Positions 35,230-56,549 of a stretch of DNA of 64,000 nt are shown in pieces. Source of the DNA: an uncultured Ignavibacteriaceae bacterium (GTDB taxonomy: Bacteria; Bacteroidota; Ignavibacteria; UBA10030; BY39); the NCBI GenBank assembly GCA_964437735.1, contig CAYTID010000001.1, forward strand, positions 8,169 to 72,168, read 5' to 3'. Every line of letters begins with the position of its first letter. Position 1 is the stretch's first letter. Made by a program: the position numbers and the translations under genes. A model generated the notes under the pieces. That model saw nothing but the letters and a program-made list of their open reading frames with translations. It was not told the origin of the DNA and did no database searches.

Positions 35230-36594
35230 TTAGTAATTACTAAATTTTTGTTTAATTTTATTTGCAGCAATTAATATCGGATCATAAAGAGGTGAATTAT
35301 TGGGAAAATATATTAAATCCAGATTAGAAATTTGATCGACTGTCAGTTTTTGCTGAATTGCAGAGCCTAAAATATTTGCGCGTAAAATTGCCCCCTCTTC
35401 TCCGAAAACATTCGCCCCCAATAATCTTCCGGTTTTTTGATCTGCAATCAATTTTAATGTAATTTTTTTACTTCCGGGCATGAATGAAACCTTGGAATAT
35501 GAATGGACTGTTTCACTGATTGTTTTGTAACCGAATTTAACTACATCCGAAAAACTCAAACCTACTCTTGCGACCTCAAGTCCGAACACTTTCATTCCGG
35601 AGGAGTTGATTGCACCCTCAAACTTTACTCTTCCTCCTGCGGCATTTATACCTGCGATTCTGCCTGTTTTAGCTGCTAAAGACGCAAGCGGAATATAAGC
35701 CGGTTTACCGGTCACTATATTTTTTACTTCGCAGCAATCACCGGCAGCATAGATACTATCAATATTCGTTTCTTGCATATTATTCACAAAGATTGCTCCG
35801 GTGGTTCCAAGTCTTAAACCGATTTTTTTCGTATAACTTACATTCGGATAAACTCCTATTGAAATCACTATCAAGCCGGCTTCATAAGTTCCTTTATTCG
35901 TTAACACGTATCCGATTTTCTCTTTACCCGATTTTATCAATGCTTCGGTTTTCGATTTGCCGAAAAATTCAATATTGTTTTGTTTTAATTGGTCGAGTAT
36001 CTTTTCTCGTACTTCGGTTTCAAAGTTATCCAATGGTAAGTCAGTATCGTGAACGATTTGAACTCTGATATTTCTTTTATGGAATGCTTCTGCCAATTCG
36101 ATCCCGATCATCCCCCCGCCAATGATTACAACTTGTTCAGTTTTTTCAGTCTTGAGAAAATTTATAATATTTCTAACATCATCTCTTGATCTCAAATTAA
36201 AAACATTTCTGAAATCTTCATTTTCCAGATTGAGTCTTTTAGGGGAAGCGCCGGTTGCCAGAATTAATTTGTCGTAACTATAATCTTTTACCTCTCCGGA
36301 ATTTAAATCGCGCACGGTAATTTTTTTTTTTTGAGATTGTAATTTTTCAAAACGATGGAATGTTTTGACAATTATCCCTTTTTCGGCTGCAAGTTTTTCC
36401 GGAGAATAAATTTCCAACAAATTTTCATCCTTAATATCGCCGCCAATCACATACGGAGATTCACAAATCCCGTAGGATACAGTCCCCGATTGTTCGAACA
36501 ATATTACTTCAGCGTGGGGATTGGTTTTTGCAGCCTGAGCAGCTGCGCTCGGACCTGCAGCTAAACCTCCTATTACTATAATTTTCTTAGTCAT
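35230..36594 (-). CDS. FAD-dependent pyridine nucleotide-disulfide oxidoreductase (CoA-disulfide reductase / NADH oxidase family, single redox Cys)
   Basis: N-terminal FAD Rossmann (KIIVIGGLAAGPSAA), single Cys motif VSYGICESPY, a second NAD Rossmann (VVIIGGGMIGIELAE). 454 aa. Confidence 0.75.
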   Translation of the reverse strand: MTKKIIVIGGLAAGPSAAAQAAKTNPHAEVILFEQSGTVSYGICESPYVIGGDIKDENLLEIYSPEKLAAEKGIIVKTFHRFEKLQSQKKKITVRDLNSGEVKDYSYDKLILATGASPKRLNLENEDFRNVFNLRSRDDVRNIINFLKTEKTEQVVIIGGGMIGIELAEAFHKRNIRVQIVHDTDLPLDNFETEVREKILDQLKQNNIEFFGKSKTEALIKSGKEKIGYVLTNKGTYEAGLIVISIGVYPNVSYTKKIGLRLGTTGAIFVNNMQETNIDSIYAAGDCCEVKNIVTGKPAYIPLASLAAKTGRIAGINAAGGRVKFEGAINSSGMKVFGLEVARVGLSFSDVVKFGYKTISETVHSYSKVSFMPGSKKITLKLIADQKTGRLLGANVFGEEGAILRANILGSAIQQKLTVDQISNLDLIYFPNNSPLYDPILIAANKIKQKFSNY

Positions 36595-37898
36595 TTTTTC
36601 TTGAAATTTAATACTATCGGAACTCCGTTATAAATAAAATGTTCTCTGATTTTATTTTCCAGAAATCTTATATAATTCTGCTGTATTAACGTTGGATTAT
36701 TTGTAAAAAAAGAAAATACCGGCGGTTTTACCTTCACTTGCATTACATGCTTGATCTTGATTTCTTTTCCGCTTTGCGATGAAGGCGGATTTTTGCTTAT
36801 CACTTCCAGTATGATATTATTCAACTGCGAAGTCGGTATTCTTTTGTAAAGTTCGCTATTTATTGTTTTGGCAATTTCGAGTGTTTTAAAGATTCTTTGT
36901 TTTGTAAATGCTGAAATAAATATTACCGGTGCATAATCAAATTGACGCAACAAATTTTTTACTCCCAATTCAAATTTTCTTGCAGTCGCGGTATCCTTTT
37001 CTATCAAATCCCATTTGTTGACGCAAATCATAAATCCCCTTTTCCGCTGTACTATCTTCTCGACGATGTGCAAATCCTGCTTATCCATCCCCTGGTTTGC
37101 ATCACAAATCAGCATCGCTACATCGCACCGTTCAATACTTTTAATTGTCCTGAGCGTACTGTAAAATTCTATATTTTCTTTAATGCGGCTCTTTCGTCTT
37201 AACCCGGCCGTATCAATCAATAAAAACTCTTCACCGTAATATTTAAGCACTGAATCGATCGGATCGCGCGTAGTACCGGCAATGGGTGTTACAATATTCC
37301 TGTCTTGTCCTAATAGCGCATTTACAAATGATGATTTCCCGACATTTGGTTTTCCGACAACTGCTAATTTTAATCGTTGGTCTTTATCAATTTTTTCTCT
37401 TTTGGGGATATCTTTTGTAATTAAATCAAGAAAATCACCGATTTTTCTTCCTCCGAGTGCGGCAAGTGAAAATGGATCACCTAAACCAAGTTTGAAAAAT
37501 TGAGCTGTGTTGATTTCAGCGGCAGCATTATCGACCTTATTGATGACTAAATATATTTTTTTTGCAGACTTCCTCAAAATATTCGCAATATCCTCATCGA
37601 GTTGTGAAATACCGTCTTTGGCATCGCACATAAATATCACCGAATTTGCCTCTTCGATTGCGATTTGAGCGTGTTCGCGCATTGCCTGTTCTATGATGTC
37701 GCTCGCCCTCGGAATATACCCACCTGTATCTACAAGCGTAAATGTTTTTCCCGTCCATTCAGCTTCTGAATAATGACGATCGCGCGTAACGCCGGGAGTA
37801 TCATCAACGATAGCGTTACGTTGTCCGATTATTCGATTAAATAATGTCGATTTTCCTACGTTGGGTCTGCCAACTATTGTTATTATATAATCAGTCAT
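36591..37898 (-). CDS. der: Ribosome-biogenesis GTPase Der (EngA), tandem GTPase domains plus KH-like domain
   Basis: Two G1 motifs (GRPNVGKST and GKPNVGKSS). 435 aa. Confidence 0.9.
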   Translation of the reverse strand: MTDYIITIVGRPNVGKSTLFNRIIGQRNAIVDDTPGVTRDRHYSEAEWTGKTFTLVDTGGYIPRASDIIEQAMREHAQIAIEEANSVIFMCDAKDGISQLDEDIANILRKSAKKIYLVINKVDNAAAEINTAQFFKLGLGDPFSLAALGGRKIGDFLDLITKDIPKREKIDKDQRLKLAVVGKPNVGKSSFVNALLGQDRNIVTPIAGTTRDPIDSVLKYYGEEFLLIDTAGLRRKSRIKENIEFYSTLRTIKSIERCDVAMLICDANQGMDKQDLHIVEKIVQRKRGFMICVNKWDLIEKDTATARKFELGVKNLLRQFDYAPVIFISAFTKQRIFKTLEIAKTINSELYKRIPTSQLNNIILEVISKNPPSSQSGKEIKIKHVMQVKVKPPVFSFFTNNPTLIQQNYIRFLENKIREHFIYNGVPIVLNFKKK

Positions 37899-37971
37899 AC
37901 GTTGTAAATTGTCTGAGTATGATAGTTAATTTTATTTAATATTACAAAAAGATTTTTTTACTAATCCAATT

Positions 37972-38391
37972 TCAGATATTTTTTGCAAATTTCGTTATCT
38001 GAGAAATCTGCTGATTGAAATTTTCAAAACCGCTGGATTTACTTATATAACCTGCCGCACCGGTTTGAAAAGCATAATTCACGTCATCTTCCCGGTCGGA
38101 AGTACTGACGATAATTACAGGAATTTCTTTAAGCTTTTTATCGGCTTTGAGAATTCTCAAAACTTCTCTCCCATCGCATCGGGGAAGATTTAAATCCAAT
38201 AAAATTAAATCCGGTGTGGGAATTTCAGTTCTGTGAATAAATATATCGGTTCTAAATAAAATATCCAGCGCTTCCTGACCATCAACCGCAAAATAAAAGT
38301 CTGCATCTACATTATTTCTCTTTAACACATATTGCAGAATTTTTAAATGCGAAGCATTATCTTCTATAATAAGTATTTTAGGCTTTTTCAA
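37972..38391 (-). CDS. Stand-alone response-regulator receiver domain (CheY-like)
   Basis: Phospho-acceptor context LILLDLNLP, conserved T (IIVSTSD) and K (GYISK). No output domain. 139 aa. Confidence 0.8.
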   Translation of the reverse strand: MKKPKILIIEDNASHLKILQYVLKRNNVDADFYFAVDGQEALDILFRTDIFIHRTEIPTPDLILLDLNLPRCDGREVLRILKADKKLKEIPVIIVSTSDREDDVNYAFQTGAAGYISKSSGFENFNQQISQITKFAKNI

Positions 38392-38400
38392 TTTTATATG

Positions 38401-40074
38401 CTATCCCCGGATCAATTTTTTATATCTGATTCGATGAGGTCTGTCGGTTTCAAGTCCCAGAACTTTCCTGCGATGTTCTTCATACTCTGAATAATTTCCA
38501 TCGAACCATACCGCCTTACTATCTCCTTCAAATGCTAAAATGTGTGTGGCTACCCGGTCGAGAAACCAGCGATCGTGCGAAATTATAACAGCACATCCGG
38601 CAAAATTCATTAATGCTTCCTCGAGTGCGCGAAGAGTATTTACATCAAGATCATTTGTCGGTTCATCGAGCAGTAAAACGTTTGCGCCTTGTTTTAAAAC
38701 TTTGGCAAGATGCACCCTGTTTCTCTCGCCTCCCGATAGCACACCGCATAATTTTTGCTGGTCAGTTCCGCTGAAGTTGAACCTTGCAACATAAGCACGT
38801 GAATTTATTTCCCGATTACCCAATGAAATCAAATCTTCTCCACCCGAAATCTCCTGCCATATCGATTTTTGCGGATCGAGCGGTCGATTTTGATCGACAT
38901 AAGCAAGTTTTACGGTTTCACCAAGGATTATTTCCCCTTTATCAGGTTTTTCCTGAGAGGTAATCATTCGGAAAAGAGTCGTCTTTCCGGCTCCATTCGG
39001 ACCGATAATACCAATAATCCCTCCGGCTGGAAGAGTGAAATTTAAATCTTCATAAAGCAAAATATCCCCGTACGACTTGACTACATTTTCAGCCTGAATA
39101 ACAATATCACCTAAACGTGGACCTGAGGGAATATATATCTCAATTTCTTCCTGACGTTTTTGATTATCTTCCGCAAGCATTTTTTCATACGAACTTATCC
39201 TTGCTTTGCTTTTTGCATGACGTCCTTTGGGATTAAGTCTGATCCACTCCAACTCTCGCTGTAATACTTTCTGCCTCTTAGATTCCTGTTTTTCTTCGAC
39301 CGACAAACGTGCTTTTTTCTGTTCAAGCCATGATGAATAGTTCCCCTCAAAAGGAATCCCTTCTCCTCTGTCAAGCTCCAGAATCCATCCTGCAACGTTA
39401 TCAAGAAAGTAACGATCGTGCGTAACAGCGATGACCGTTCCTTTATATTGAGAAAGATGCTGCTCAAGCCATCCTACAGATTCAGCATCAAGATGGTTTG
39501 TCGGTTCATCAAGGAGTAAAACATCAGGTTCCTGAAGTAACAGACGGCAAAGCGCAACGCGCCGCCGTTCGCCGCCTGATATTATTGACACAGATGTTTC
39601 GGGTGGCGGACAACGAAGCGCATCCATCGCTTGTTCAAGCTTGCTATCGATATCCCACGCTCCAAGATGATCAATCTTCTCCTGAAGTTTTGCCTGCTGC
39701 TCAAGTAAAACATCGAAATCTGCGTCAGGGTCTCCGAACTTTGCGTTAATAGCCTCATATTCCTTCAGTAAGTTAACAGTCTCGCGTGCACCCTCCTCGA
39801 CTATTTCCCGTACAGTTTTTGATTGATCTAATTCAGGTTCCTGAGGAAGATAACCAAATGTGATTCCTTTCTGAGCTGTTATCTGACCGAGATAATCTTT
39901 GTCAACTCCGGCAATTATCCGGAGCAATGTACTTTTTCCGGAACCGTTTAAACCAAGCACACCTATTTTTGCTCCATAATAAAAAGATAGATATATGTCT
40001 TTTAAAACCTGTTTATTCGGTTTGTGAACTTTGCCAACACCTATCATTGAAAATATTATTTTTGTATCACTCAT
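38401..40074 (-). CDS. ettA: ABC-F family ATPase, energy-dependent translational throttle EttA-like
   Basis: Two ABC cassettes with Walker A (GLNGSGKST, GPNGAGKTT) and LSGGE signatures, no TMs. N-terminus matches EttA/YjjK. 557 aa. Confidence 0.85.
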   Translation of the reverse strand: MSDTKIIFSMIGVGKVHKPNKQVLKDIYLSFYYGAKIGVLGLNGSGKSTLLRIIAGVDKDYLGQITAQKGITFGYLPQEPELDQSKTVREIVEEGARETVNLLKEYEAINAKFGDPDADFDVLLEQQAKLQEKIDHLGAWDIDSKLEQAMDALRCPPPETSVSIISGGERRRVALCRLLLQEPDVLLLDEPTNHLDAESVGWLEQHLSQYKGTVIAVTHDRYFLDNVAGWILELDRGEGIPFEGNYSSWLEQKKARLSVEEKQESKRQKVLQRELEWIRLNPKGRHAKSKARISSYEKMLAEDNQKRQEEIEIYIPSGPRLGDIVIQAENVVKSYGDILLYEDLNFTLPAGGIIGIIGPNGAGKTTLFRMITSQEKPDKGEIILGETVKLAYVDQNRPLDPQKSIWQEISGGEDLISLGNREINSRAYVARFNFSGTDQQKLCGVLSGGERNRVHLAKVLKQGANVLLLDEPTNDLDVNTLRALEEALMNFAGCAVIISHDRWFLDRVATHILAFEGDSKAVWFDGNYSEYEEHRRKVLGLETDRPHRIRYKKLIRG

Positions 40075-40085
40075 ATCAAATTTTA

Positions 40086-41000
40086 TTAATGTTTATATTC
40101 AGTATATTTTTTCTCTCCCGCTTCAATCCGCAAATTCAGATAATTTTGTTCAGGCGGTAACGGACACGTGGCGAATTCAGAAAAAACACAAGGCGGATTG
40201 TAAGATTTATTAAAATCAAGAACAACTATATTTTCCGAATCGGGTAAGCTAGTATAAAGGTAACGCCCCATACCGTATGTTTCCTTTCCGCTTGTCAGAT
40301 CATTAAAAATTATAAACAAGTTGTTTCCATCTTTCAACGCATCTAGCTCATGGATTTTACCATCAACCTCAAATGAAATCGCCCCCGTACAAGTATCGTT
40401 ATTAACCTGATTGAGTATATTAACTATCGGTATGATTTTGGGCGGTATGTAGGGGATAAAATCTGCCTCGAATCTCCAATCGGGATTAATTTCAAAATAT
40501 TCTAATCCTTTAAAATTCAGAAATGAAGGATTTTTATTGTCCTTCAATCTAACGCCAACCTGTTCGCCCCTTTTAATAATATAAAATGTAAATGATTCAT
40601 GTTTCATAATTGTTGGATTTGCTTTCCCGTCTCCATCTGACAGAAGCTGAATTTCGGTTACAAGAGAATCATTCACAGTTATTTTTACATCCTTTGCAGC
40701 TTTGAGATGCATATTCCCATTATCAAGATAAATAGAGCCAATATAGTTTAGAGTTCTGCCTTGCGGGAAAATAACTTTATTTGAAGAATCAGCTCCCATT
40801 TTATTTTCGCCTTCGGTAAGCCAAAACAGTCCTGTGAGAGTCAGCCAACTATCCGGTAGCTTAAGCCGATCATTACGTTTTTTCTGCCACTCTTGAATTT
40901 CAGAACGATATTCAAGAACATTGAAATTCTTAGTTTTACTGCAATTAAAAATTGTGAACGACAGTATTGATATTAATATAAAAAAGGATATGTATTTCAT
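40086..41000 (-). CDS. Hypothetical lipoprotein, possibly DUF1684 family
   Basis: Lipobox (FNCS). N-terminal motif ...WQKKRNDRLKLPDSWLTLTGLFWL resembles the DUF1684 signature as I recall it. Weak call. Confidence 0.4.
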   Translation of the reverse strand: MKYISFFILISILSFTIFNCSKTKNFNVLEYRSEIQEWQKKRNDRLKLPDSWLTLTGLFWLTEGENKMGADSSNKVIFPQGRTLNYIGSIYLDNGNMHLKAAKDVKITVNDSLVTEIQLLSDGDGKANPTIMKHESFTFYIIKRGEQVGVRLKDNKNPSFLNFKGLEYFEINPDWRFEADFIPYIPPKIIPIVNILNQVNNDTCTGAISFEVDGKIHELDALKDGNNLFIIFNDLTSGKETYGMGRYLYTSLPDSENIVVLDFNKSYNPPCVFSEFATCPLPPEQNYLNLRIEAGEKKYTEYKH

Positions 41001-41097
41001 ATGACAATTTATTTAATGGAAATATACAAAATTCTTAGATAAAATTTAAGGTGGGAGTGATTTTTATTAAGGAATCACAATTTGGAATATTAAGAAT

Positions 41098-41122
41098 AAA
41101 AAAAGCCGAAACACAAGTTTCG
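41098..41122 (-). terminator. Rho-independent terminator ending the tRNA-Pro/tandem-repeat transcription unit
   Basis: Stem cgaaac/gtttcg with loop acaa at 41107-41122. On the plus strand it is preceded by A7 (41098-41104), which is a U7 tail on the minus strand. Confidence 0.55.
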
Positions 41123-41129
41123 ATCTCCA

Positions 41130-41306
41130 TGTCGGGGCGGCCCCAAAGGGGCAAGCGGGATTTTGCGCCGGAGGCGCATCAGCCTTCGGCTGAGGACCTA
41201 CAACCTCTTTTAATTTTGTCGGGGCTGCCCCCCGAAGGGACAAGCGGGATTTTGCGCCGGAGGCGCATCAACCTTCGGCTGAGAACCTACGACCTCTTTT
41301 CATTTT
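41130..41306 (-). repeat. Two tandem, roughly 88-nt GC-rich structured repeats (41130-41216 and 41217-41306) downstream of tRNA-Pro; each contains fragments of the tRNA-Pro 3' half
   Basis: Copies are about 90% identical. Each begins (plus strand) with tgtcggggc (the tRNA 3' acceptor end) and contains gcgggattt (T-arm) and gacctctt. Between these lie GC hairpins (gcgcc-gga-ggcgc; cagcc-ttcg-ggctg). Confidence 0.7.
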
Positions 41307-41308
41307 GT

Positions 41309-41382
41309 CGGGGCGGCGGGATTTGAACCCGCGACCTCTTGGTCCCGAACCAAGCGCGCTAGCCGGGCTGCGCTACGCCCCG
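41309..41382 (-). tRNA. tRNA-Pro (anticodon CGG)
   Basis: The reverse complement reads CGGGGCGTAGCGCAGCCCGGCTAGCGCGCTTGGTTCGGGACCAAGAGGTCGCGGGTTCAAATCCCGCCGCCCCGA. Acceptor stem CGGGGCG/CGCCCCG, anticodon stem CTTGG/CCAAG with loop TTCGGGA, T-loop TTCAAAT. Confidence 0.85.
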
Positions 41383-41482
41383 TTTTCTAAATTTCGTAGT
41401 ACGAATTTCGAAATACGAATATTGATAATTCAATCAGATTTAAAAATTTTCATTTGAAAGATACTAAAGATAAACAGAAAAA

Positions 41483-42412
41483 TCAATTATTTTTAAAATG
41501 TTTTATTATGTCTGTGGATAGCTTGGAAAAATCTGTATCATTATCAATCATGAACCATTTTATTCTTTCGTCCCTTCTGAACCAAGTCAACTGTCTCTTT
41601 GCGTATCTACGGCTGTTTCGTTTGATAAGTTCAACCATCGCGGCATAATCAATTTCTCCATTCAGATGCATAAACACTTCCTGATATCCAACCGTTTGCA
41701 GCGAATTGATCTCAGATGTATATCCTATATTTTTTAATTCTTTTACCTCCTCGATCAAGCCGTTGCTAACCATTTCGTCGACTCGCCTATTAATCCGCTC
41801 GTACAATATTTCCCTTTCCCAATCCAGTCCGATGATGATTTTTCTGAAACTGATTTCGATTTTTTCATTTTGTAATTTCGATATTGGAATTCCGGTAATA
41901 GCATATACTTCAATCGCACGAATTATTCTTCTTACATTACTTGGCAGCATTTTAGAAGCAGCATCAGGATCAAATTTCCTTAATTCATCTAAAAGTTTTT
42001 CGGAACCTTCAGAGTGTAATCTTTCGTACAATCCTTTCCTGACATGATCATCCGCAGAAGGCGCATCAAAAAATCCATCGATCAACGAATTCACATATAA
42101 ACCCGAGCCGCCTACAACAATTGGTTGTTTTCCTTTTTTAAAAATCTGATCGATTCTCTCCCTTCCCTGTTTTCCGAATTCCCCTGCATTAAAAATTTCA
42201 TCGGGTAAATATTCATCGATGAAATGATGCTTGCACGAATTCAGGACTCCGCGAGTCGGCTTAGCCGTACCAATGTCTAAATATTTATATATCTGTCGCG
42301 AATCTGCTGATATAATTTCGCCATCCAATTCCTTGGAAATGATTACGCTAAGTTCAGTTTTACCCGATGCGGTGGGACCAACTATTACAAGAACTTTTTT
42401 ATTTTTTTCCAT
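41483..42412 (-). CDS. miaA: tRNA dimethylallyltransferase
   Basis: P-loop VIVGPTASGKTELS, DSRQIY motif. 309 aa. Confidence 0.9.
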   Translation of the reverse strand: MEKNKKVLVIVGPTASGKTELSVIISKELDGEIISADSRQIYKYLDIGTAKPTRGVLNSCKHHFIDEYLPDEIFNAGEFGKQGRERIDQIFKKGKQPIVVGGSGLYVNSLIDGFFDAPSADDHVRKGLYERLHSEGSEKLLDELRKFDPDAASKMLPSNVRRIIRAIEVYAITGIPISKLQNEKIEISFRKIIIGLDWEREILYERINRRVDEMVSNGLIEEVKELKNIGYTSEINSLQTVGYQEVFMHLNGEIDYAAMVELIKRNSRRYAKRQLTWFRRDERIKWFMIDNDTDFSKLSTDIIKHFKNN

Positions 42413-42437
42413 CAGGCTCCGTTAGTATCACCGCTAG

Positions 42438-43094
42438 TTACTTCTGCCAACCCATTTTCCCGATCAAAGGTACAAATTTAAATCCTAAAATGTCTTTTCT
42501 TTGATAACTGTCTCCCTCCCTTGTTACCACATGGAGGTCTTGAAAATCTATGTTGCCTATCGGAATAACGAGCTTACCGCCGTTGACCAGTTGTGCCAGC
42601 AATGGTTCGGGAATTTCCGGCGCCGATGCTGTAACTATAATGCCGTCATAAGGAGCAAACTCTCCCCAACCGATTGTACCGTCGCCGCATTTTGAGACAA
42701 TAGGATATTTAAGTTTATCGAATACTTTCCTTGCTTCGTTCAACAATTCCATATGTCTTTCGATAGTAAAAACTCTCGCTCCCATCTCTGCTAAAACCGC
42801 TGCCTGATAACCTGAACCAGTTCCTATTTCCAATACCTTAGCCCCTTTTTTGATTTCTAGAGCTTCAGTCATTACTGCGACGGTATAAGGCTGTGATATG
42901 GTCTGTGATAATCCTATCGGTAATGCTGAATCTTCATAAGCTCTTCCTACAAATAAATCTCCCACAAATAAGTGTCGGGGGATTTTTTCCATAGCTCGTA
43001 ATAATGATTCATCATTTACATTACGCCGGCGGATTAAATCCACCATTTCCTTACGTTCGCTTTTATATCTTCCATTGCTAACAAAATCAGCCAT
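42438..43094 (-). CDS. pcm: Protein-L-isoaspartate O-methyltransferase
   Basis: SAM-binding VLEIGTGSGYQAAVLA and the upstream ISQPY motif. 218 aa. Confidence 0.85.
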   Translation of the reverse strand: MADFVSNGRYKSERKEMVDLIRRRNVNDESLLRAMEKIPRHLFVGDLFVGRAYEDSALPIGLSQTISQPYTVAVMTEALEIKKGAKVLEIGTGSGYQAAVLAEMGARVFTIERHMELLNEARKVFDKLKYPIVSKCGDGTIGWGEFAPYDGIIVTASAPEIPEPLLAQLVNGGKLVIPIGNIDFQDLHVVTREGDSYQRKDILGFKFVPLIGKMGWQK

Positions 43095-43902
43095 TGGTTC
43101 TCAAACTACTCCAAATATTTTTCCAGGTTTTTTCTGTATATTTTATTAATCTGTTTCTTAATTCCTGCTGTAATTCATGCGCCGATAGTCCGGAAACTAA
43201 AACACCATTTTCCGCTATCGATAATGTTCCCCTTTCTTCGGAAACGATTACTACAATTACATCAGCTTGTTCTGAAATCCCCAAGCCGGCACGATGTCGC
43301 ATTCCCAGAATTAATTCTCCGATTCTTGTCACGTGAGAAAGCGGTAACGTACAGCGGGCAGCTTCAATAATACGATCTTTAATTATTACGGCACCATCGT
43401 GTAATGGTGATTTAGGATTGAAAATGGATATCAGTAATGCCTTGCTCACGAGCGCCTGAAGAGAAATTCCGGTTTCTACTAAACTTCTAATCCCTGTAGC
43501 CCTCGAAATAACAATCAAAGCGCCATGACGCTTTCGAGATAAATCAGCTGCAGCCGCGGCAATCTCGTCGATAGATTCCGTAACATCAATCCGTATAAAT
43601 CGCCGGATTACACGATTTTTACCGATGATTACCAGAAGTCTTCTTAACTCAGGTTGAAATAATATTATAAAAGCTATTACCCAAATATCCGTTAAAGTTC
43701 TCAGCAACCAACTCATAGCTTTCAGATTGATAGCTTGAGCGAAAAAAGAAAATGCTATTATCACAAGAAGTCCGACAAAAATCTGTGCGGCGATTGTTCC
43801 CCGCATAATAGTATACAACTTGTAAAATATAATCGATACGATTGCAATATCCAGAACATCGACTAAAGTTACAGTAATAAATCCGATTTTAAATAATTCC
43901 AA
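43087..43902 (-). CDS. cdaA: Diadenylate cyclase CdaA (3 N-terminal TMs plus DAC/DisA_N domain)
   Basis: Three TM helices, then DAC motifs (HDGAVII, RHRAGLGISE-like RHR motif). 271 aa. 8-nt overlap with pcm. Confidence 0.8.
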   Translation of the reverse strand: MELFKIGFITVTLVDVLDIAIVSIIFYKLYTIMRGTIAAQIFVGLLVIIAFSFFAQAINLKAMSWLLRTLTDIWVIAFIILFQPELRRLLVIIGKNRVIRRFIRIDVTESIDEIAAAAADLSRKRHGALIVISRATGIRSLVETGISLQALVSKALLISIFNPKSPLHDGAVIIKDRIIEAARCTLPLSHVTRIGELILGMRHRAGLGISEQADVIVVIVSEERGTLSIAENGVLVSGLSAHELQQELRNRLIKYTEKTWKNIWSSLRTNG

Positions 43903-43911
43903 TTTTTATTC

Positions 43912-44745
43912 CTATTTTAATGCATCTACAATTTTTGCAACTCGTTTCATTTCTTTAACATCGTGCACTCTTACAACATTTGCGCCCTTCATAATTGAAA
44001 CAGCTATGGCAGCCGCAGTCCCCTCAAGCCTCTCATCCACCGGCAAATTAAGAATATTTCCGATAAAAGATTTCCGTGAAGGTCCGATTAGTACGGGATA
44101 TTTCAGGTCCTTAAATTCATTTAATCTTTTTAAAATTTCGATGTTATGTTTTACATTTTTTCCGAAACCAATACCCGGGTCTACAAATATTTTCTTGACT
44201 CCATAACGTTCAGCCTTATCAATGCTTTCCTGTAGAGAATGTTTTATTTCGTCGATCAGATTCTCATATTCCGGATTATTTTGCATCGTTTTCGGATTGC
44301 CCTTCATATGCATTAACACGATCGCAGCATCATATTTTCCTGCAATTTCAGCTATTCGTATGTCATTTCGCAAGCTGCTGATATCATTTATGATAGTTGC
44401 TCCTGATTCCAAGGCTTTTTCTGCAACCACCGACTTTGTTGTATCGATCGAAATAGGAATTTTTGTTAAAGAATTCAACTTCCTGACTACCGGAATTACT
44501 CTTTCCAACTCAACCTCGACAGGGACTGAATCGGAACCGGGCTTTGTCGACTCCCCGCCGATATCAATAAAATCAGCCCCCTCGTCGATCATCCGCAGTG
44601 CATGATCGACAGCTTTTTCAGTGGAAAAATATTCCCCTGCATCCGAAAACGAATCGGGTGTAACATTTAAAATACCCATTATATAAGTACGCTCTGTAAA
44701 ATCGTACTCATGCGAATTAAATTTAAATAAATTTTCTTTTAACAC
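43912..44745 (-). CDS. folP: Dihydropteroate synthase
   Basis: IMGILNVTPDSFSDAG and pterin-binding TIM-barrel motifs (DIGGESTKPG). 277 aa. Confidence 0.9.
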   Translation of the reverse strand: MLKENLFKFNSHEYDFTERTYIMGILNVTPDSFSDAGEYFSTEKAVDHALRMIDEGADFIDIGGESTKPGSDSVPVEVELERVIPVVRKLNSLTKIPISIDTTKSVVAEKALESGATIINDISSLRNDIRIAEIAGKYDAAIVLMHMKGNPKTMQNNPEYENLIDEIKHSLQESIDKAERYGVKKIFVDPGIGFGKNVKHNIEILKRLNEFKDLKYPVLIGPSRKSFIGNILNLPVDERLEGTAAAIAVSIMKGANVVRVHDVKEMKRVAKIVDALK

Positions 44746-53697: not shown

Positions 53698-54297
53698 TTA
53701 CTTCAGATTCAATTTCTCAAGCTTAGGTTTTATTACATATTCGCAATATGGCGCACTGGGATTGTTATTAAAGTAATCCTGATGATAGTTTTCTGCTTTG
53801 TAATATTTTTTGAGAGGTTGTATTTCAGAAACTATCGGTGATTCGAAATATTTTGCCGCCTCTTTTTTACTTTTTTCAGCTGCCAGTTTTTGCTTTTCGT
53901 TATGATAAAAAATTACCGATCTGTACTGAGTGCCTATATCTGCTCCCTGACGGTTTAGAGTCGTCGGATCATGAGATTTCCAAAATACTCCAAGTATTTG
54001 CTCATAAGACACTTTTTCCGAATCGAATGTCAACTGAGCGACTTCAGCGTGCCCCGAATTTCCTGAACTGACCTCTTTATATGTCGGATTTATGATCGTT
54101 CCTCCTGTGTAACCCACCTCGACATTCGTCACACCATCGATCCTCTCAAATACCGCTTCGACACACCAAAAGCAGCCTGCACCGAGTGTCGTTTTTTCAG
54201 GTTTTTTATCCATAGAATAAATATTATTTGAAATATGAAAGATTGAAATGATTGTAATGATTGTAAATATTTTAATGATTAAATGCTTCATTACCAT
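53698..54297 (-). CDS. msrA: Peptide methionine sulfoxide reductase MsrA, with N-terminal signal peptide
   Basis: Catalytic GAGCFWC motif. Start moved to MVMKHLIIKIFTIITIISIF (signal peptide). The longer 250-aa reading adds an unlikely 51-aa leader. Confidence 0.85.
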   Translation of the reverse strand: MVMKHLIIKIFTIITIISIFHISNNIYSMDKKPEKTTLGAGCFWCVEAVFERIDGVTNVEVGYTGGTIINPTYKEVSSGNSGHAEVAQLTFDSEKVSYEQILGVFWKSHDPTTLNRQGADIGTQYRSVIFYHNEKQKLAAEKSKKEAAKYFESPIVSEIQPLKKYYKAENYHQDYFNNNPSAPYCEYVIKPKLEKLNLK

Positions 54298-54479: not shown

Positions 54480-56549
54480 ATGCTTAAGAATAAAATCATA
54501 TTAATATTTTCAATTATTTCAATAATTACAATCATTTCAATATCAGTAATATCTTGTTCAAAAAAGGAAACAAAAATGGAAGAAAAGAGACAATACAAAT
54601 TGGAACGGGTCGGTCCTGCACAGGTTGTACAGCTTTATGCAGATGGTTTTGATAAACTTACGACAAATGAGAAAATTTTTGCATACTATCTGAATTTAGC
54701 CGGATTGGCAGGCCGCGATATTGCCATCGACCAGCACCATCCGGATGCGCTTGAAGTCCGTGAATTATTTGAACAAATATTCTTATTTCAAAACGGCATC
54801 GATGAAAATGTTATAAACAAAATCACACAATACTTAAAACTGTTCTGGATTAACAATGGATTTTATGATAATCTGACTTCAAAAAAGTTCGTACTTGAGA
54901 TTACATTTGAAGAATTAAAAACAGCTTGCGAAATCGCCAAGAAAAACGGTGCGGCAGTATCAACCGCTGATGAACCGCTCGATAAAAAATTAGCACGTCT
55001 CAAAGAAATAATTATAAATCCGGATTTTGAACCGATGCAGACAAACAAAACTCCCGGTCACGATTGGATAAAAGGAAGCGCAGTAAATTTTTATGAAAAA
55101 GGAATCACTTATTCTGAAGTTGAAAAATGGGCAAGAGCCGGCAACGAAAAAAATTCTCTCAATTCAAAAGTAGTTAATGAAAACGGAAAGCTTGTTGAAA
55201 AAGTTTGGCGCGCCGGAACCGACGGTATTGCTCCTGGTATGTATGCGAAAGATTTGAAGGCTGTCATAAAATATTTAGAAATGGCAATCCCATATGCATC
55301 GGGAGAACATCAGAAACAAACTGTTGAACTCCTTATCAAATATCTGAAGACCGGAGATTTGAATGATTTTAGAGATTATAACATACATTGGGTAAAAGAT
55401 TCATCGAATGTCGATTTTATACTTGGTTTCATCGAAGTGTATCTTGATCCCCGCGGACAAAAAGCCGAGTGGGAAACATCAATTTTCTTTAACGATCCTG
55501 AACAAACCAAACTGATGCAGAACCTTGCAAAGTATGCGCAATATTTTGAAGAGAATGCTCCCTGGCAGGATACTTATAAGAAAAAAATTGAAAAGTCTCC
55601 TATAGCAAATGTCATTAATGTCGTCGGCTCCGGCGGCGGCACCGGACCCGTCAGTCCCATCGGAATTAATTTACCAAACGAGCAGGCGATACGTGAAGAA
55701 CACGGAAGTAAAAGTGTACTGTTGAATAATATTGTTGATGCCTATGATAAATCATCAGGACTGGAAATGACAAAAGAATTTGCCTGGGATGAAAAAGAAG
55801 TGGAATTGCAGGAAAAATATGGATCTTTAGCGAGTAATTTACACACAGCATATCACGAGGTAATCGGACACGGATCGGGAAAGGTGAGTGATAAACTGAT
55901 GGGAAAAGATCCGGCAGATTTTCTCCCCGGATATTACAACACACTTGAAGAAACCCGGGCTGATTTAGTCTCACTTTGGTATGCTTTTGATCCGAAAATT
56001 ATTGATATCGGTTTTGCAAAAGATATGGATGAAGTCAGAAAGATCGGAGAAACAATGTATCAGCAATCAATCCGTGTCGCGATTGCACAACTACGACGGA
56101 TTGGCAAGAGCGATCAGCTTGAGCAGGACCACATGAAAAACAGGCAGCTCATTGCTCATTATATCATGAAAAATTCCGATGCAATTATTACAGAAATAAA
56201 AGATCGAAAAACTTATTACCGCATCGTAAATTATGAATCGATGAAAAAAACTGTCGGAGAGCTTCTTGCAGAAGTAATGCGAATAAAAGCTGAAGGCGAC
56301 TATGAAGCAGCCAAAAAACTGATCGATACTTATGCATTAAAAGTCGATATTGAACTCAGGGACGAAGTTCAGGAACGCGCTGCCAAACTCGATCTCCCAT
56401 CATACACAGGTTTTGTAATGCCTAAACTTGAACCGGTAATGGATCCCGAAGCAAAAATTATTGATGTGAAAGTAAGTTATCCTCTCGATTTAACAAAGCA
56501 AATGTTGGAATATTCATCTTTTACAAAAAATGAGAAACAAATAAAGTAA
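54480..56549 (+). CDS. Dipeptidyl-peptidase III-like zinc metallopeptidase (M49 family), lipoprotein
   Basis: Signal plus lipobox (VISCS). HEVIGH (HExxGH) followed by EETRAD (EExRAE) at M49 spacing. 689 aa. Confidence 0.7.
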   Translation: MLKNKIILIFSIISIITIISISVISCSKKETKMEEKRQYKLERVGPAQVVQLYADGFDKLTTNEKIFAYYLNLAGLAGRDIAIDQHHPDALEVRELFEQIFLFQNGIDENVINKITQYLKLFWINNGFYDNLTSKKFVLEITFEELKTACEIAKKNGAAVSTADEPLDKKLARLKEIIINPDFEPMQTNKTPGHDWIKGSAVNFYEKGITYSEVEKWARAGNEKNSLNSKVVNENGKLVEKVWRAGTDGIAPGMYAKDLKAVIKYLEMAIPYASGEHQKQTVELLIKYLKTGDLNDFRDYNIHWVKDSSNVDFILGFIEVYLDPRGQKAEWETSIFFNDPEQTKLMQNLAKYAQYFEENAPWQDTYKKKIEKSPIANVINVVGSGGGTGPVSPIGINLPNEQAIREEHGSKSVLLNNIVDAYDKSSGLEMTKEFAWDEKEVELQEKYGSLASNLHTAYHEVIGHGSGKVSDKLMGKDPADFLPGYYNTLEETRADLVSLWYAFDPKIIDIGFAKDMDEVRKIGETMYQQSIRVAIAQLRRIGKSDQLEQDHMKNRQLIAHYIMKNSDAIITEIKDRKTYYRIVNYESMKKTVGELLAEVMRIKAEGDYEAAKKLIDTYALKVDIELRDEVQERAAKLDLPSYTGFVMPKLEPVMDPEAKIIDVKVSYPLDLTKQMLEYSSFTKNEKQIK

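What the first reader, a model, noticed from the sequence alone, without database searches (positions are those of the whole stretch)
41098..41382. tRNA-Pro(CGG) followed by two tandem 88-nt GC-rich hairpin repeats built from tRNA 3'-half fragments, all in one terminator-bounded unit
Downstream of tRNA-Pro on the minus strand lie two approximately 90%-identical 88-nt units at 41217-41306 and 41130-41216.

Each unit ends, in RNA sense, with GCCCCGACA, which copies the tRNA acceptor 3' end CGCCCCGA. Each also carries the T-arm fragment AAATCCCGC and AAGAGGTC. These fragments are separated by inserted GC-rich hairpins (GCGCC-UCC-GGCGC and CAGCC-GAAG-GCUG with GNRA/UUCG-like tetraloops). The block is about 60% GC in a roughly 35% GC genome and is closed by an intrinsic terminator at 41098-41122.

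This could be one of three things: (a) a tRNA-derived structured small RNA co-transcribed with tRNA-Pro, (b) stacked att-site scars left by successive integration and excision events at the tRNA 3' end, or (c) a REP/BIME-like extragenic palindromic element. None of these is a standard annotation for this locus, and the tRNA-fragment mosaic structure is unusual.
Basis: seen in the sequence. Interest (0 to 1): 0.62.

Follow-up and report, generated by a model that had tools for sequence, protein, structure and literature searches.

The report
Tandem broken copies of tRNA-Pro end
Right after a proline tRNA gene sit two tandem, degenerate copies of that gene's last third, each broken up by small GC-rich hairpins; similar repeat arrays follow tRNA-Pro genes in over a hundred other bacterial species and look mostly like gene-less leftovers of recombination at the tRNA's end, not a new RNA gene.

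Summary
tRNA-Pro(CGG) lies at 41307-41382 (minus strand). It is followed by two tandem units of 90 and 87 nt that are 89% identical and 59-60% GC in a 37% GC window. A single intrinsic terminator closes the block.

Each unit copies tRNA positions ~41-76 plus two trailer bases. Two hairpins are inserted in the T-loop and a third between the T-stem and the acceptor strand.

The structure is not unique to this window. One gapped-pattern scan found 111 species-representative genomes in which tRNA-Pro is followed by 1 to 6 or more such units, mostly Anaerolineae. Some are Ignavibacteria, LCP-89, Armatimonadota and others. The units are 57-101 nt long. Their last 17-20 nt usually equal the local tRNA's 3' end, and the T-loop is usually interrupted by a hairpin.

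Several results point to recombination at the tRNA 3' end:
- Homologous units sit at two different tRNA-Pro genes of one genome.
- Interrupted copies bracket small accessory-gene cassettes in two loci.
- Prophages use the same tRNA.
- Copy number varies between relatives.

Integrases are almost never adjacent, and no Rfam family matches.

REP/BIME is rejected. A functional RNA is not excluded.

The parts
41307..41382 (-). tRNA-Pro(CGG) gene with no encoded CCA; it is the source of the sequence copied in the units
   Evidence: ARAGORN; Rfam tRNA model 67.2 bits
41217..41306 (-). Unit 1 (90 nt). In sense order: 8-nt A-rich linker; AAGAGGTCGTAGGTTC (41283-41298), matching the tRNA variable loop, T-stem 5' strand and UUC; hairpin 1 (41268-41282); hairpin 2 (41253-41267); AAATCCCGC (41244-41252), matching the T-loop 3' half and T-stem 3' strand; hairpin 3 (41226-41243); GCCCCGACA (41217-41225), matching the acceptor 3' strand, the discriminator base and 2 nt of trailer
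   Evidence: Sequence; TRF; hairpins in fold and hairpin scan; unit alignment
41130..41216 (-). Unit 2 (87 nt), same layout: AAGAGGTTGTAGGTCC (41194-41209); hairpin 1 (41179-41193); hairpin 2 (41164-41178); AAATCCCGC (41155-41163); hairpin 3 (41140-41154); CGCCCCGACA (41130-41139)
41096..41123 (-). Intrinsic-terminator-like hairpin (stem 41106-41123) followed by a T-run. It closes the tRNA plus units transcription unit
   Evidence: Terminator scan; fold -9.4 kcal/mol, z -2.8
41483..42412 (-). miaA, the upstream neighbour on the same strand. It is the synteny anchor used to fetch orthologous loci
   Evidence: Homologs named MiaA with Pfam IPPT; gene order conserved in relatives

Best explanation
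The block is a two-copy tandem array of degenerate partial copies of the adjacent tRNA-Pro gene's 3' third. It belongs to a widespread class of short repeats linked to tRNA-Pro that I have not found described. These repeats behave like cargo-less attachment-site (att-like) duplications.

Inferred sequence of events:
1. Recombination at the tRNA 3' end leaves a second copy of that end a few tens of bases downstream. The recombination could be site-specific integration and loss of an element, or homology-driven copying between tRNA-Pro genes that share the same 3' end.
2. The short segment between the two copies carries a GC-rich palindrome next to the repeated core. It is either an element-arm remnant or a later insertion.
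3. Unequal recombination or replication slippage between the direct repeats changes the copy number. This produced the two 89%-identical units seen here.

In this window no terminator separates the tRNA from the units. They are therefore probably transcribed as the tRNA's 3' trailer and cut off during 3' maturation (inferred). No separate function needs to be assumed.
For: Shown directly:
- The units are collinear copies of tRNA positions ~41-76 plus trailer, with three hairpin insertions.
- The same architecture follows tRNA-Pro genes (anticodons CGG, GGG and UGG) in 111 species-representative genomes and one IMG/VR provirus flank, with 1 to 6 or more units.
- The exact-identity block with the local tRNA 3' end peaks at 17-20 nt in 81 of 113 loci and ends in the T-loop. 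A hairpin ends 0-6 nt upstream of it in 57 of 108.
- Copy number differs (1-3) among genomes that share the same downstream host gene.
- Homologous modules, including the terminator spacer, sit at two different tRNA-Pro genes of one MAG. L040 and L082 are 83% identical over 77 aligned columns, and L044 and L086 also pair up.
- Interrupted partial copies bracket accessory cassettes. In L037 the cassette is a 1.2-kb MNT/HepT toxin-antitoxin pair. In L028 there are two cassettes of 2-2.7 kb.
- Mobile elements do use this tRNA. L006 and L100 have phage or integrase DNA directly upstream of a tRNA 3' half that is followed by host units, and L114 is similar.
- In the nearest MiaA relative, L002, the downstream remnant has a different T-stem (CCGGG) from its tRNA (CCCAC), as expected if a 3' end was displaced.
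- Orthologous miaA-tRNA-Pro loci L003, L004 and L122 lack units, so the array is lineage-specific.

Published precedent: tandem islands bounded by a 20-bp direct repeat of the ssrA 3' end, a conserved element-side motif just upstream of each repeat, and integrase-less cis-mobilizable elements in Dehalococcoides (PMC3146451). Partial tRNAs also accumulate by successive integration (10.1101/2020.12.28.424599; PMC9897764).
Against: - No tyrosine- or serine-recombinase motif lies in the 64-kb window. Only 2 of 112 related loci have one within the 8 kb fetched. These were crude regular-expression tests.
- No viral contig carries an Anaerolineae-type unit as a candidate attP.
- In the window the repeated core is split by hairpin 3. 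Contiguous identity to the tRNA end is only 8-11 nt, which is too short for a working att site.
- Recurrent hairpins at or near the same place in several phyla are not predicted by neutral scars. Neither is the excess of G.T over A.C pairs on the tRNA-sense strand (82 against 25, with ~1.6:1 expected).
- Units persist in conserved host synteny, which could mean selection. It could equally reflect site-specific re-insertion.
- No close relative of this genome was available to show copy-number change at this very locus.
Confidence: 0.55

Rival explanations
1. The units are a functional structured RNA made from the tRNA-Pro 3' trailer. Candidates are a stable small RNA, a decoy or a processing/stability element. 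The hairpins would be under selection at the RNA level, and the tRNA-like tail would be needed for recognition by a tRNA-binding factor.
For: - No terminator lies between the tRNA and the units, and a strong one follows them.
- Family-wide, the 45 nt before the core fold better in the sense than in the antisense direction in 106 of 141 distinct units, against 33.
- G.T pairs exceed A.C pairs more than composition predicts.
- Loops are often RNA-type stable tetraloops in the sense register: CGAAGG and CUUCGG in the window, L038 and L067, and CUACGG in L016.
- The CCCC/GGGG hairpin and its flanks are conserved across Anaerolineae while the spacers diverge.
Against: - Many arrays have a terminator-like hairpin plus U-run after every unit, so distal units would rarely be transcribed.
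- Consensus folding keeps only a 4-bp hairpin with modest covariation.
- Hairpin sequences are unrelated between phyla.
- Window units fold no better than shuffles (z -0.9 and -1.6).
- The antisense strand of the window block folds better (-82 kcal/mol, z -3.7) than the sense strand (-68.8, z -1.7).
- Distal units tend to decay (a biased test).
- No Rfam family matches.
- No partner gene is conserved nearby.
Confidence: 0.2
2. The units are miniature non-autonomous mobile modules consisting of a core, a spacer and a hairpin arm. They would be moved in trans by an integrase encoded elsewhere, much as MITEs relate to transposons. The hairpin would be needed for recombination, possibly on single-stranded DNA.
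For: - Modules with homologous spacers sit at different tRNA-Pro genes in one genome.
- An identical 17-nt hairpin, UCCCGAUGGAAUCGGGA, occurs in units from Ignavibacteria (L035, L074) and Planctomycetota (L075).
- The hairpin abuts the core boundary.
- Strand-biased hairpins would also fit single-stranded DNA substrates.
- The cis-mobilizable element concept is published (PMC3146451).
Against: - No integrase was linked to the arrays.
- Circles of 57-101 bp are very small for a tyrosine recombinase (own knowledge).
- Spread between paralogous tRNA genes can be explained by homologous recombination through their shared 3' ends.
- No free or viral copies were found.
Confidence: 0.12
3. The units are a REP/BIME-like extragenic palindromic element that happens to lie next to a tRNA.
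For: The hairpins are GC-rich and lie in an extragenic, post-gene position. A GTAG motif precedes the hairpins.
Against: - No other copy of the unit or of its hairpins occurs in 64 kb.
- All related units found elsewhere are attached to a tRNA-Pro 3' end.
- The GTAG is simply the mutated T-stem.
- Units are direct repeats, not alternately inverted ones.
Confidence: 0.03
4. The units serve the host at the DNA level, either as decoy or spare attachment sites that draw integrating elements away from the tRNA, or as stacked terminators that insulate downstream genes from tRNA read-through.
For: Prophages integrate into the same tRNA. Many arrays repeat a terminator with each unit.
Against: - The window units carry no internal terminators.
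- Their cores are split by hairpins, so they would be poor att sites.
- In L006 and L100 the elements sit in the tRNA itself, not in a unit.
Confidence: 0.08

Closest known systems
Tandem accretion of genomic islands and cis-mobilizable elements at tRNA/tmRNA 3' ends, for example Dehalococcoides ssrA islands bounded by 20-bp direct repeats (PMC3146451)
   Same: Direct repeats of the last ~20 nt of a tRNA-like gene are stacked downstream in the same orientation. Their number varies between strains. A conserved non-tRNA motif lies just upstream of each repeat. Some intervals lack an integrase.
   Different: Here the intervals are only 57-101 bp and carry no genes. The motif next to the repeat is a GC hairpin, often inside a longer pseudo-tRNA segment. 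No cognate integrase was identified. In the window the core itself is split.
Partial tRNA genes left by integration of phages, ICEs or tycheposons (PMC9897764; 10.1101/2020.12.28.424599)
   Same: A complete tRNA is followed by 3'-partial copies. Older copies are pushed away from the tRNA. The tRNA is a proven integration target (L006, L100, L114).
   Different: Classical fragments have an intact T-arm and lie kilobases away, at the far end of an element. Here the T-loop is interrupted and the copies are adjacent. Only 18 of 161 distinct units had an intact T-arm.
REP/BIME extragenic palindromes
   Same: GC-rich hairpins in clusters downstream of genes.
   Different: REPs are dispersed in tens to hundreds of copies and are not tRNA copies. 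This unit occurs only at this one site in the window and is always tRNA-linked elsewhere.
Type III toxin-antitoxin RNA repeats (ToxI-like)
   Same: Tandem short repeats followed by a terminator and then a gene.
   Different: The downstream gene is a DUF1684 lipoprotein, not a ToxN-like nuclease. The repeats are tRNA fragments. No PADLOC scan was run.

Membership tests
att-type direct repeats from site-specific integration at a tRNA 3' end (including cis-mobilizable elements) | Downstream direct repeat identical to the 3' end of the tRNA gene, in the same orientation | tested here: met
   Each window unit ends in (C)GCCCCGACA and carries AAATCCCGC. However, the contiguous identity is only 8-11 nt because hairpin 3 splits it. 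Across the family the block is 17-20 nt in 81 of 113 loci.
att-type direct repeats from site-specific integration at a tRNA 3' end (including cis-mobilizable elements) | A recombinase gene in or next to the element | tested here: not met
   No tyrosine- or serine-recombinase motif in the window. Neighbouring genes are housekeeping. Only 2 of 112 related loci have a tyrosine-integrase motif within 8 kb, and none has a serine-recombinase motif. These were motif-regex tests only.
att-type direct repeats from site-specific integration at a tRNA 3' end (including cis-mobilizable elements) | Accessory DNA (cargo) between the repeats | tested here: not met
   The window intervals hold only the linker and hairpins. 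Cargo is present between interrupted copies in L037 (MNT/HepT) and L028.
att-type direct repeats from site-specific integration at a tRNA 3' end (including cis-mobilizable elements) | Presence/absence or copy-number polymorphism at the same site in relatives | tested here: inconclusive
   Distant orthologous loci L003, L004 and L122 lack units, and L002 has a gap plus a remnant. No close relative of this genome exists in the collections. Polymorphism is clear in other lineages.
att-type direct repeats from site-specific integration at a tRNA 3' end (including cis-mobilizable elements) | Excision or integration activity (circles, empty sites) | not testable with these tools
   Needs PCR or long-read population data.
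REP/BIME | Many dispersed copies in intergenic regions of the same genome | tested here: not met
   Zero further copies in 64 kb with up to 3 mismatches allowed. The hairpins are unique. The rest of the genome was not available.
REP/BIME | Associated RAYT (TnpA-REP) transposase | not tested
   No search was made for it. The genes flanking the locus (35230-44745) are housekeeping or non-mobile by Pfam.
Curated structured RNA families (Rfam 15) | Score at or above a family's gathering threshold | tested here: not met
   Only the tRNA model hits the window. The same holds in 12 related loci and in L122 and L123.
tRNA / pseudo-tRNA gene | Cloverleaf with acceptor 5' strand, D-arm and anticodon arm | tested here: not met
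   ARAGORN and the Rfam tRNA model do not call the units. The units lack tRNA positions 1 to ~40.
Type III TA antitoxin repeats | Tandem RNA repeats followed by a terminator and a ToxN/AbiEii-type toxin gene | tested here: not met
   The downstream gene is DUF1684, followed by an ABC-F ATPase.

The most novel reading that the evidence does not exclude
Hairpin-interrupted pseudo-3'-halves of tRNA-Pro form a distinct, widespread genetic module found in Chloroflexota, Ignavibacteriota, LCP-89, Armatimonadota and some Proteobacteria. The module is maintained by selection in one of two ways. It could be a miniature site-specific mobile element that targets the tRNA-Pro 3' end without its own recombinase. 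Or it could be a structured trailer RNA whose tRNA-identical tail and sense-strand hairpins act on tRNA-Pro maturation or on elements that integrate there.
Probability: 0.25. Interest if true: 0.7.

Novelty: new variant of a known kind. Interest (0 to 1): 0.45.

Why it matters
Partial tRNA copies are routinely used to mark the borders of genomic islands, and they are sometimes mis-annotated as tRNA genes. This finding shows a recurrent, very compact form: arrays with a 57-101 bp period, no genes, and the T-loop replaced by a hairpin. It occurs at tRNA-Pro genes in more than a hundred species.

Practical consequences:
- The arrays break short-read assemblies. Several relatives' contigs end at this locus.
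- They can confuse tools that delimit islands.
- They could cause the trailer of an abundant tRNA to be misread as a small RNA.

If the hairpins turn out to be selected, the arrays would point to an undescribed step in recombination at tRNA genes or in tRNA trailer biology. For this window alone, the feature is a lineage-specific, probably neutral by-product.

Tried and rejected
- Rfam at gathering and E-value thresholds on the window and on 14 related loci gave only tRNA hits. A weak permuted-tmRNA hit (E 7.1) reflects T-arm similarity only.
- Hammerhead ribozyme idea: CUGAUG lies next to hairpin 2, but the core is incomplete by eye and Rfam has no hit.
- Coding reading: the plus-strand ORF 41051-41326 has no Pfam match, and the two units are read in different frames.
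- Exact unit motif in IMG/VR: 0 hits. Anaerolineae-type unit in IMG/VR: 0 hits.
- BLASTN of the block against phage and plasmid collections: no match.
- The metagenome scan for window-type units gave two hits. Both are chance matches inside GC-rich coding DNA with no tRNA.
- The covariance model built from Anaerolineae units finds arrays and T-arms but barely touches the window units (16 bits, E 0.84). They are analogous in layout, not alignable in their inserts.
- The 'two mini-hairpins' reading of L038, L044 and L086 was revised. Their loops are complementary and they fold as one 8-bp hairpin inside the T-loop.
- Distal-decay test: the last unit has more mismatches than the first in 18 arrays against 1. 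This is biased, because the search pattern fixed the first unit. Comparing the second unit with the last gives only a weak trend.
- tRNA-Pro specificity: 28 other tRNAs in the fetched loci have no such repeats. However, the only genome scan was designed around the tRNA-Pro end, so specificity is untested.
- Literature searches found no description of these short arrays.

Full report
OBSERVATION

On the minus strand, miaA (41483-42412) is followed by tRNA-Pro(CGG) at 41307-41382. Two tandem units follow at 41217-41306 and 41130-41216. Tandem Repeats Finder gives a period of 89 nt, 2.1 copies, 90% matches and score 305. The units are 80/90 identical. A terminator-like hairpin with a T-run lies at 41096-41123, and there is none between the tRNA and the units.

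The units are 59-60% GC, against 37.3% for the window. Unit motifs occur nowhere else in the 64 kb, with 0 expected by chance. GC-rich perfect hairpins are otherwise rare in the window.

ANATOMY

Read in the tRNA sense, each unit contains the following segments in order:
- an 8-nt A-rich linker;
- AAGAGGTCGTAGGTTC, which matches the tRNA's AAGAGGTCGCGGGTTC (end of the anticodon stem, variable loop, T-stem 5' strand and UUC);
- two abutting hairpins, UCAGCC-GAA-GG(U/C)UGA and UGCGCC-UCC-GGCGCA;
- AAATCCCGC, the rest of the T-loop plus the T-stem 3' strand;
- a third hairpin, GUCCC-UUCG-GGGGGC in unit 1 and GCCCC-UUU-GGGGC in unit 2;
- (C)GCCCCGACA, the acceptor 3' strand, the discriminator and two trailer bases.

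A unit is thus a copy of the tRNA's last third with insertions at two points. The differences between the two units mostly keep the pairing (G.U against G-C).

The folding evidence in the window is weak. Single units fold no better than shuffles (z -0.9 and -1.6). The whole block folds better as antisense RNA (-82 kcal/mol, z -3.7) than as sense RNA (-68.8, z -1.7). The plus-strand ORF over the block has no Pfam match and is not in phase with the repeat. Rfam finds only the tRNA.

CONTEXT

The neighbours are housekeeping genes: folP, cdaA, pcm, miaA, then the tRNA and units, then a DUF1684 gene, an ABC-F ATPase, a response regulator and engA. No recombinase motif occurs in the window.

The organism is an Ignavibacteriales-like MAG. 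Its MiaA has no relative above 65% identity. Orthologous miaA-tRNA-Pro loci lack units in L003, L004 and L122. In L002 the tRNA is followed by 100 N and then ...GGCGGAGAATCCGGGCGCCCCGACA. This is the end of a similar unit, but its T-stem differs from that of the L002 tRNA. Several relatives' contigs end at this locus.

THE WIDER FAMILY

I scanned for a tRNA-Pro T-arm and acceptor followed 40-70 nt later by AATCC...GCCCCGAC. The scan found one IMG/VR contig and 111 species-representative genomes. Most are Chloroflexota (Anaerolineae). Others are Ignavibacteria (L035, L038, L074), LCP-89 (L044, L086), Armatimonadota (L013), Bacteroidota (L067, L083), Calditrichia, Gemmatimonadota and some Proteobacteria.

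In nearly all of them a complete tRNA-Pro (anticodon CGG, GGG or UGG) is followed by 1 to 6 or more tandem units with a period of 57-101 nt. The exact-identity block with the local tRNA's 3' end peaks sharply at 17-20 nt (81 of 113 loci) and ends inside the T-loop. A hairpin ends 0-6 nt upstream of that block in 57 of 108.

Four layouts are seen:
- One hairpin in the T-loop. This is the Anaerolineae type, UUUCCCC-AYYGA-GGGGA.
- A longer or double hairpin in the T-loop, as in the window, L013, L027, L038, L044, L067 and L086.
- An intact T-arm with the anticodon arm replaced by a hairpin, as in L035, L058, L064, L074 and L075.
- Plain duplicates, as in L009, L024, L031, L094 and L114.

No Rfam family covers any of them. 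I found no paper that describes them.

EVIDENCE ON ORIGIN

1. The tRNA is a proven integration target. In L006 (phage genes) and L100 (an integrase motif 234 nt upstream), foreign DNA abuts a tRNA 3' half, and host units follow it. L114 has the full tRNA 3.7 kb upstream.
2. Interrupted partial copies bracket accessory cassettes. L037 carries a 1.2-kb MNT/HepT pair. L028 has two intervals of ~2-2.7 kb.
3. Homologous modules, including the terminator-like spacer, occur at two different tRNA-Pro genes of one MAG. L040 has at least 5 units and L082 has 1, and they are 83% identical. The two LCP-89 loci, L044 and L086, differ by pair-preserving changes in the hairpin.
4. Copy number is 1-3 among genomes that share the same downstream gene. 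The unit's core always matches the local tRNA even where T-stems differ between species.
5. Against an active element: recombinase motifs are almost never within the 8 kb fetched, and no viral contig carries the unit.

Published systems give the frame. Dehalococcoides carries tandem islands bounded by a 20-bp repeat of the ssrA 3' end, with a conserved element-side motif just upstream. Integrase-less cis-mobilizable elements have been proposed there (PMC3146451). Tycheposons leave stacked partial tRNAs (10.1101/2020.12.28.424599). tRNA fragments from integration are common (PMC9897764).

EVIDENCE ON RNA-LEVEL SELECTION

Across 141 distinct units, the 45 nt before the core fold better in sense than in antisense in 106 cases, against 33. 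A strand-symmetric hairpin finder counts 82 interior G.T pairs against 25 A.C pairs, or 51 against 13 with one unit per locus. Composition and shuffles predict about 1.6:1. Sense-register stable tetraloops are frequent.

Against this, consensus folding of 53 Anaerolineae units keeps only a 4-bp stem with modest covariation. Many arrays have a terminator after each unit. The window block itself does not favour the sense strand.

CONCLUSION

The window feature is best read as a lineage-specific, two-copy member of a widespread class of cargo-less, att-like partial tRNA-Pro repeats. They are made by recombination at the tRNA 3' end and multiplied by unequal recombination. Here they are transcribed as the tRNA's trailer (confidence about 0.55).

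The recurrent hairpin beside the core is the one feature that this does not explain. It leaves room for a mini mobile module or a functional trailer RNA. REP/BIME is rejected. Whether the phenomenon is specific to tRNA-Pro could not be tested, because the single genome scan was built on the tRNA-Pro end (one search is only a weak control).

Noticed in passing
window 41390-41420: A 14-nt tandem repeat (AATTTCGAAATACG x2.2) containing TTTCGAAA palindromes lies immediately upstream of the tRNA-Pro start, in the likely promoter region.
   Followed up: no
L123 2525-2762 and L122 2535-2612: In a relative (GCA_947085285.1), the 5' end of tRNA-Pro (CGGGGCGTAGCGCAG) is itself repeated in tandem with a ~137-nt period, upstream of where the tRNA should be. 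Its D-loop is interrupted by two long hairpins, and the contig ends inside the array. L122 keeps one of the hairpins upstream of its intact tRNA. This mirrors the 3' units on the 5' side. Rfam has no hit.
   Followed up: partly
L001, L120, L121, L123 (contig ends); L002 3697-3796: Contigs of several relatives and of the source sample stop within or just before the tRNA-Pro next to miaA. L002 has a 100-N gap right after it. This suggests that repeats at this locus commonly break assemblies.
   Followed up: partly
L035 ~515-531, L074, L075: An identical 17-nt hairpin, UCCCGAUGGAAUCGGGA, replaces the anticodon arm in partial tRNA-Pro copies from two Ignavibacteria and one Planctomycetota MAG. It has a proper 7-nt loop that reads like a GGA anticodon. 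This hints at horizontal spread.
   Followed up: no
L037 1042-1690 and 2517-3374: An MNT/HepT toxin-antitoxin pair is bracketed by two hairpin-bearing partial tRNA-Pro copies. A group II intron-type reverse transcriptase follows directly.
   Followed up: partly
window 38401-41000 versus L122, L003, L004: The DUF1684 lipoprotein and ABC-F ATPase genes lie between tRNA-Pro and the response regulator/engA pair only in this window. Relatives have other small genes there or none. The tRNA's downstream flank is therefore a variable spot, but no far-side repeat was found.
   Followed up: partly
window 41128-41306 (+ strand): The antisense strand of the repeat block folds markedly better than shuffles (z -3.7) and better than the sense strand. 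The reason is that the loops of hairpins 1 and 2 are partly complementary and pair as G.U on that strand.
   Followed up: partly
window 54241-54285 and 54494-54542: Two nearby arrays of 9/18-nt tandem repeats (GATTGTAAT and AATAATTTC types) were reported by Tandem Repeats Finder.
   Followed up: no
L040 7575-8000; L084 6965-7531: These are the longest arrays seen. L040 has at least 5 identical 76-nt units running off the locus end, and L084 has 6 units.
   Followed up: no
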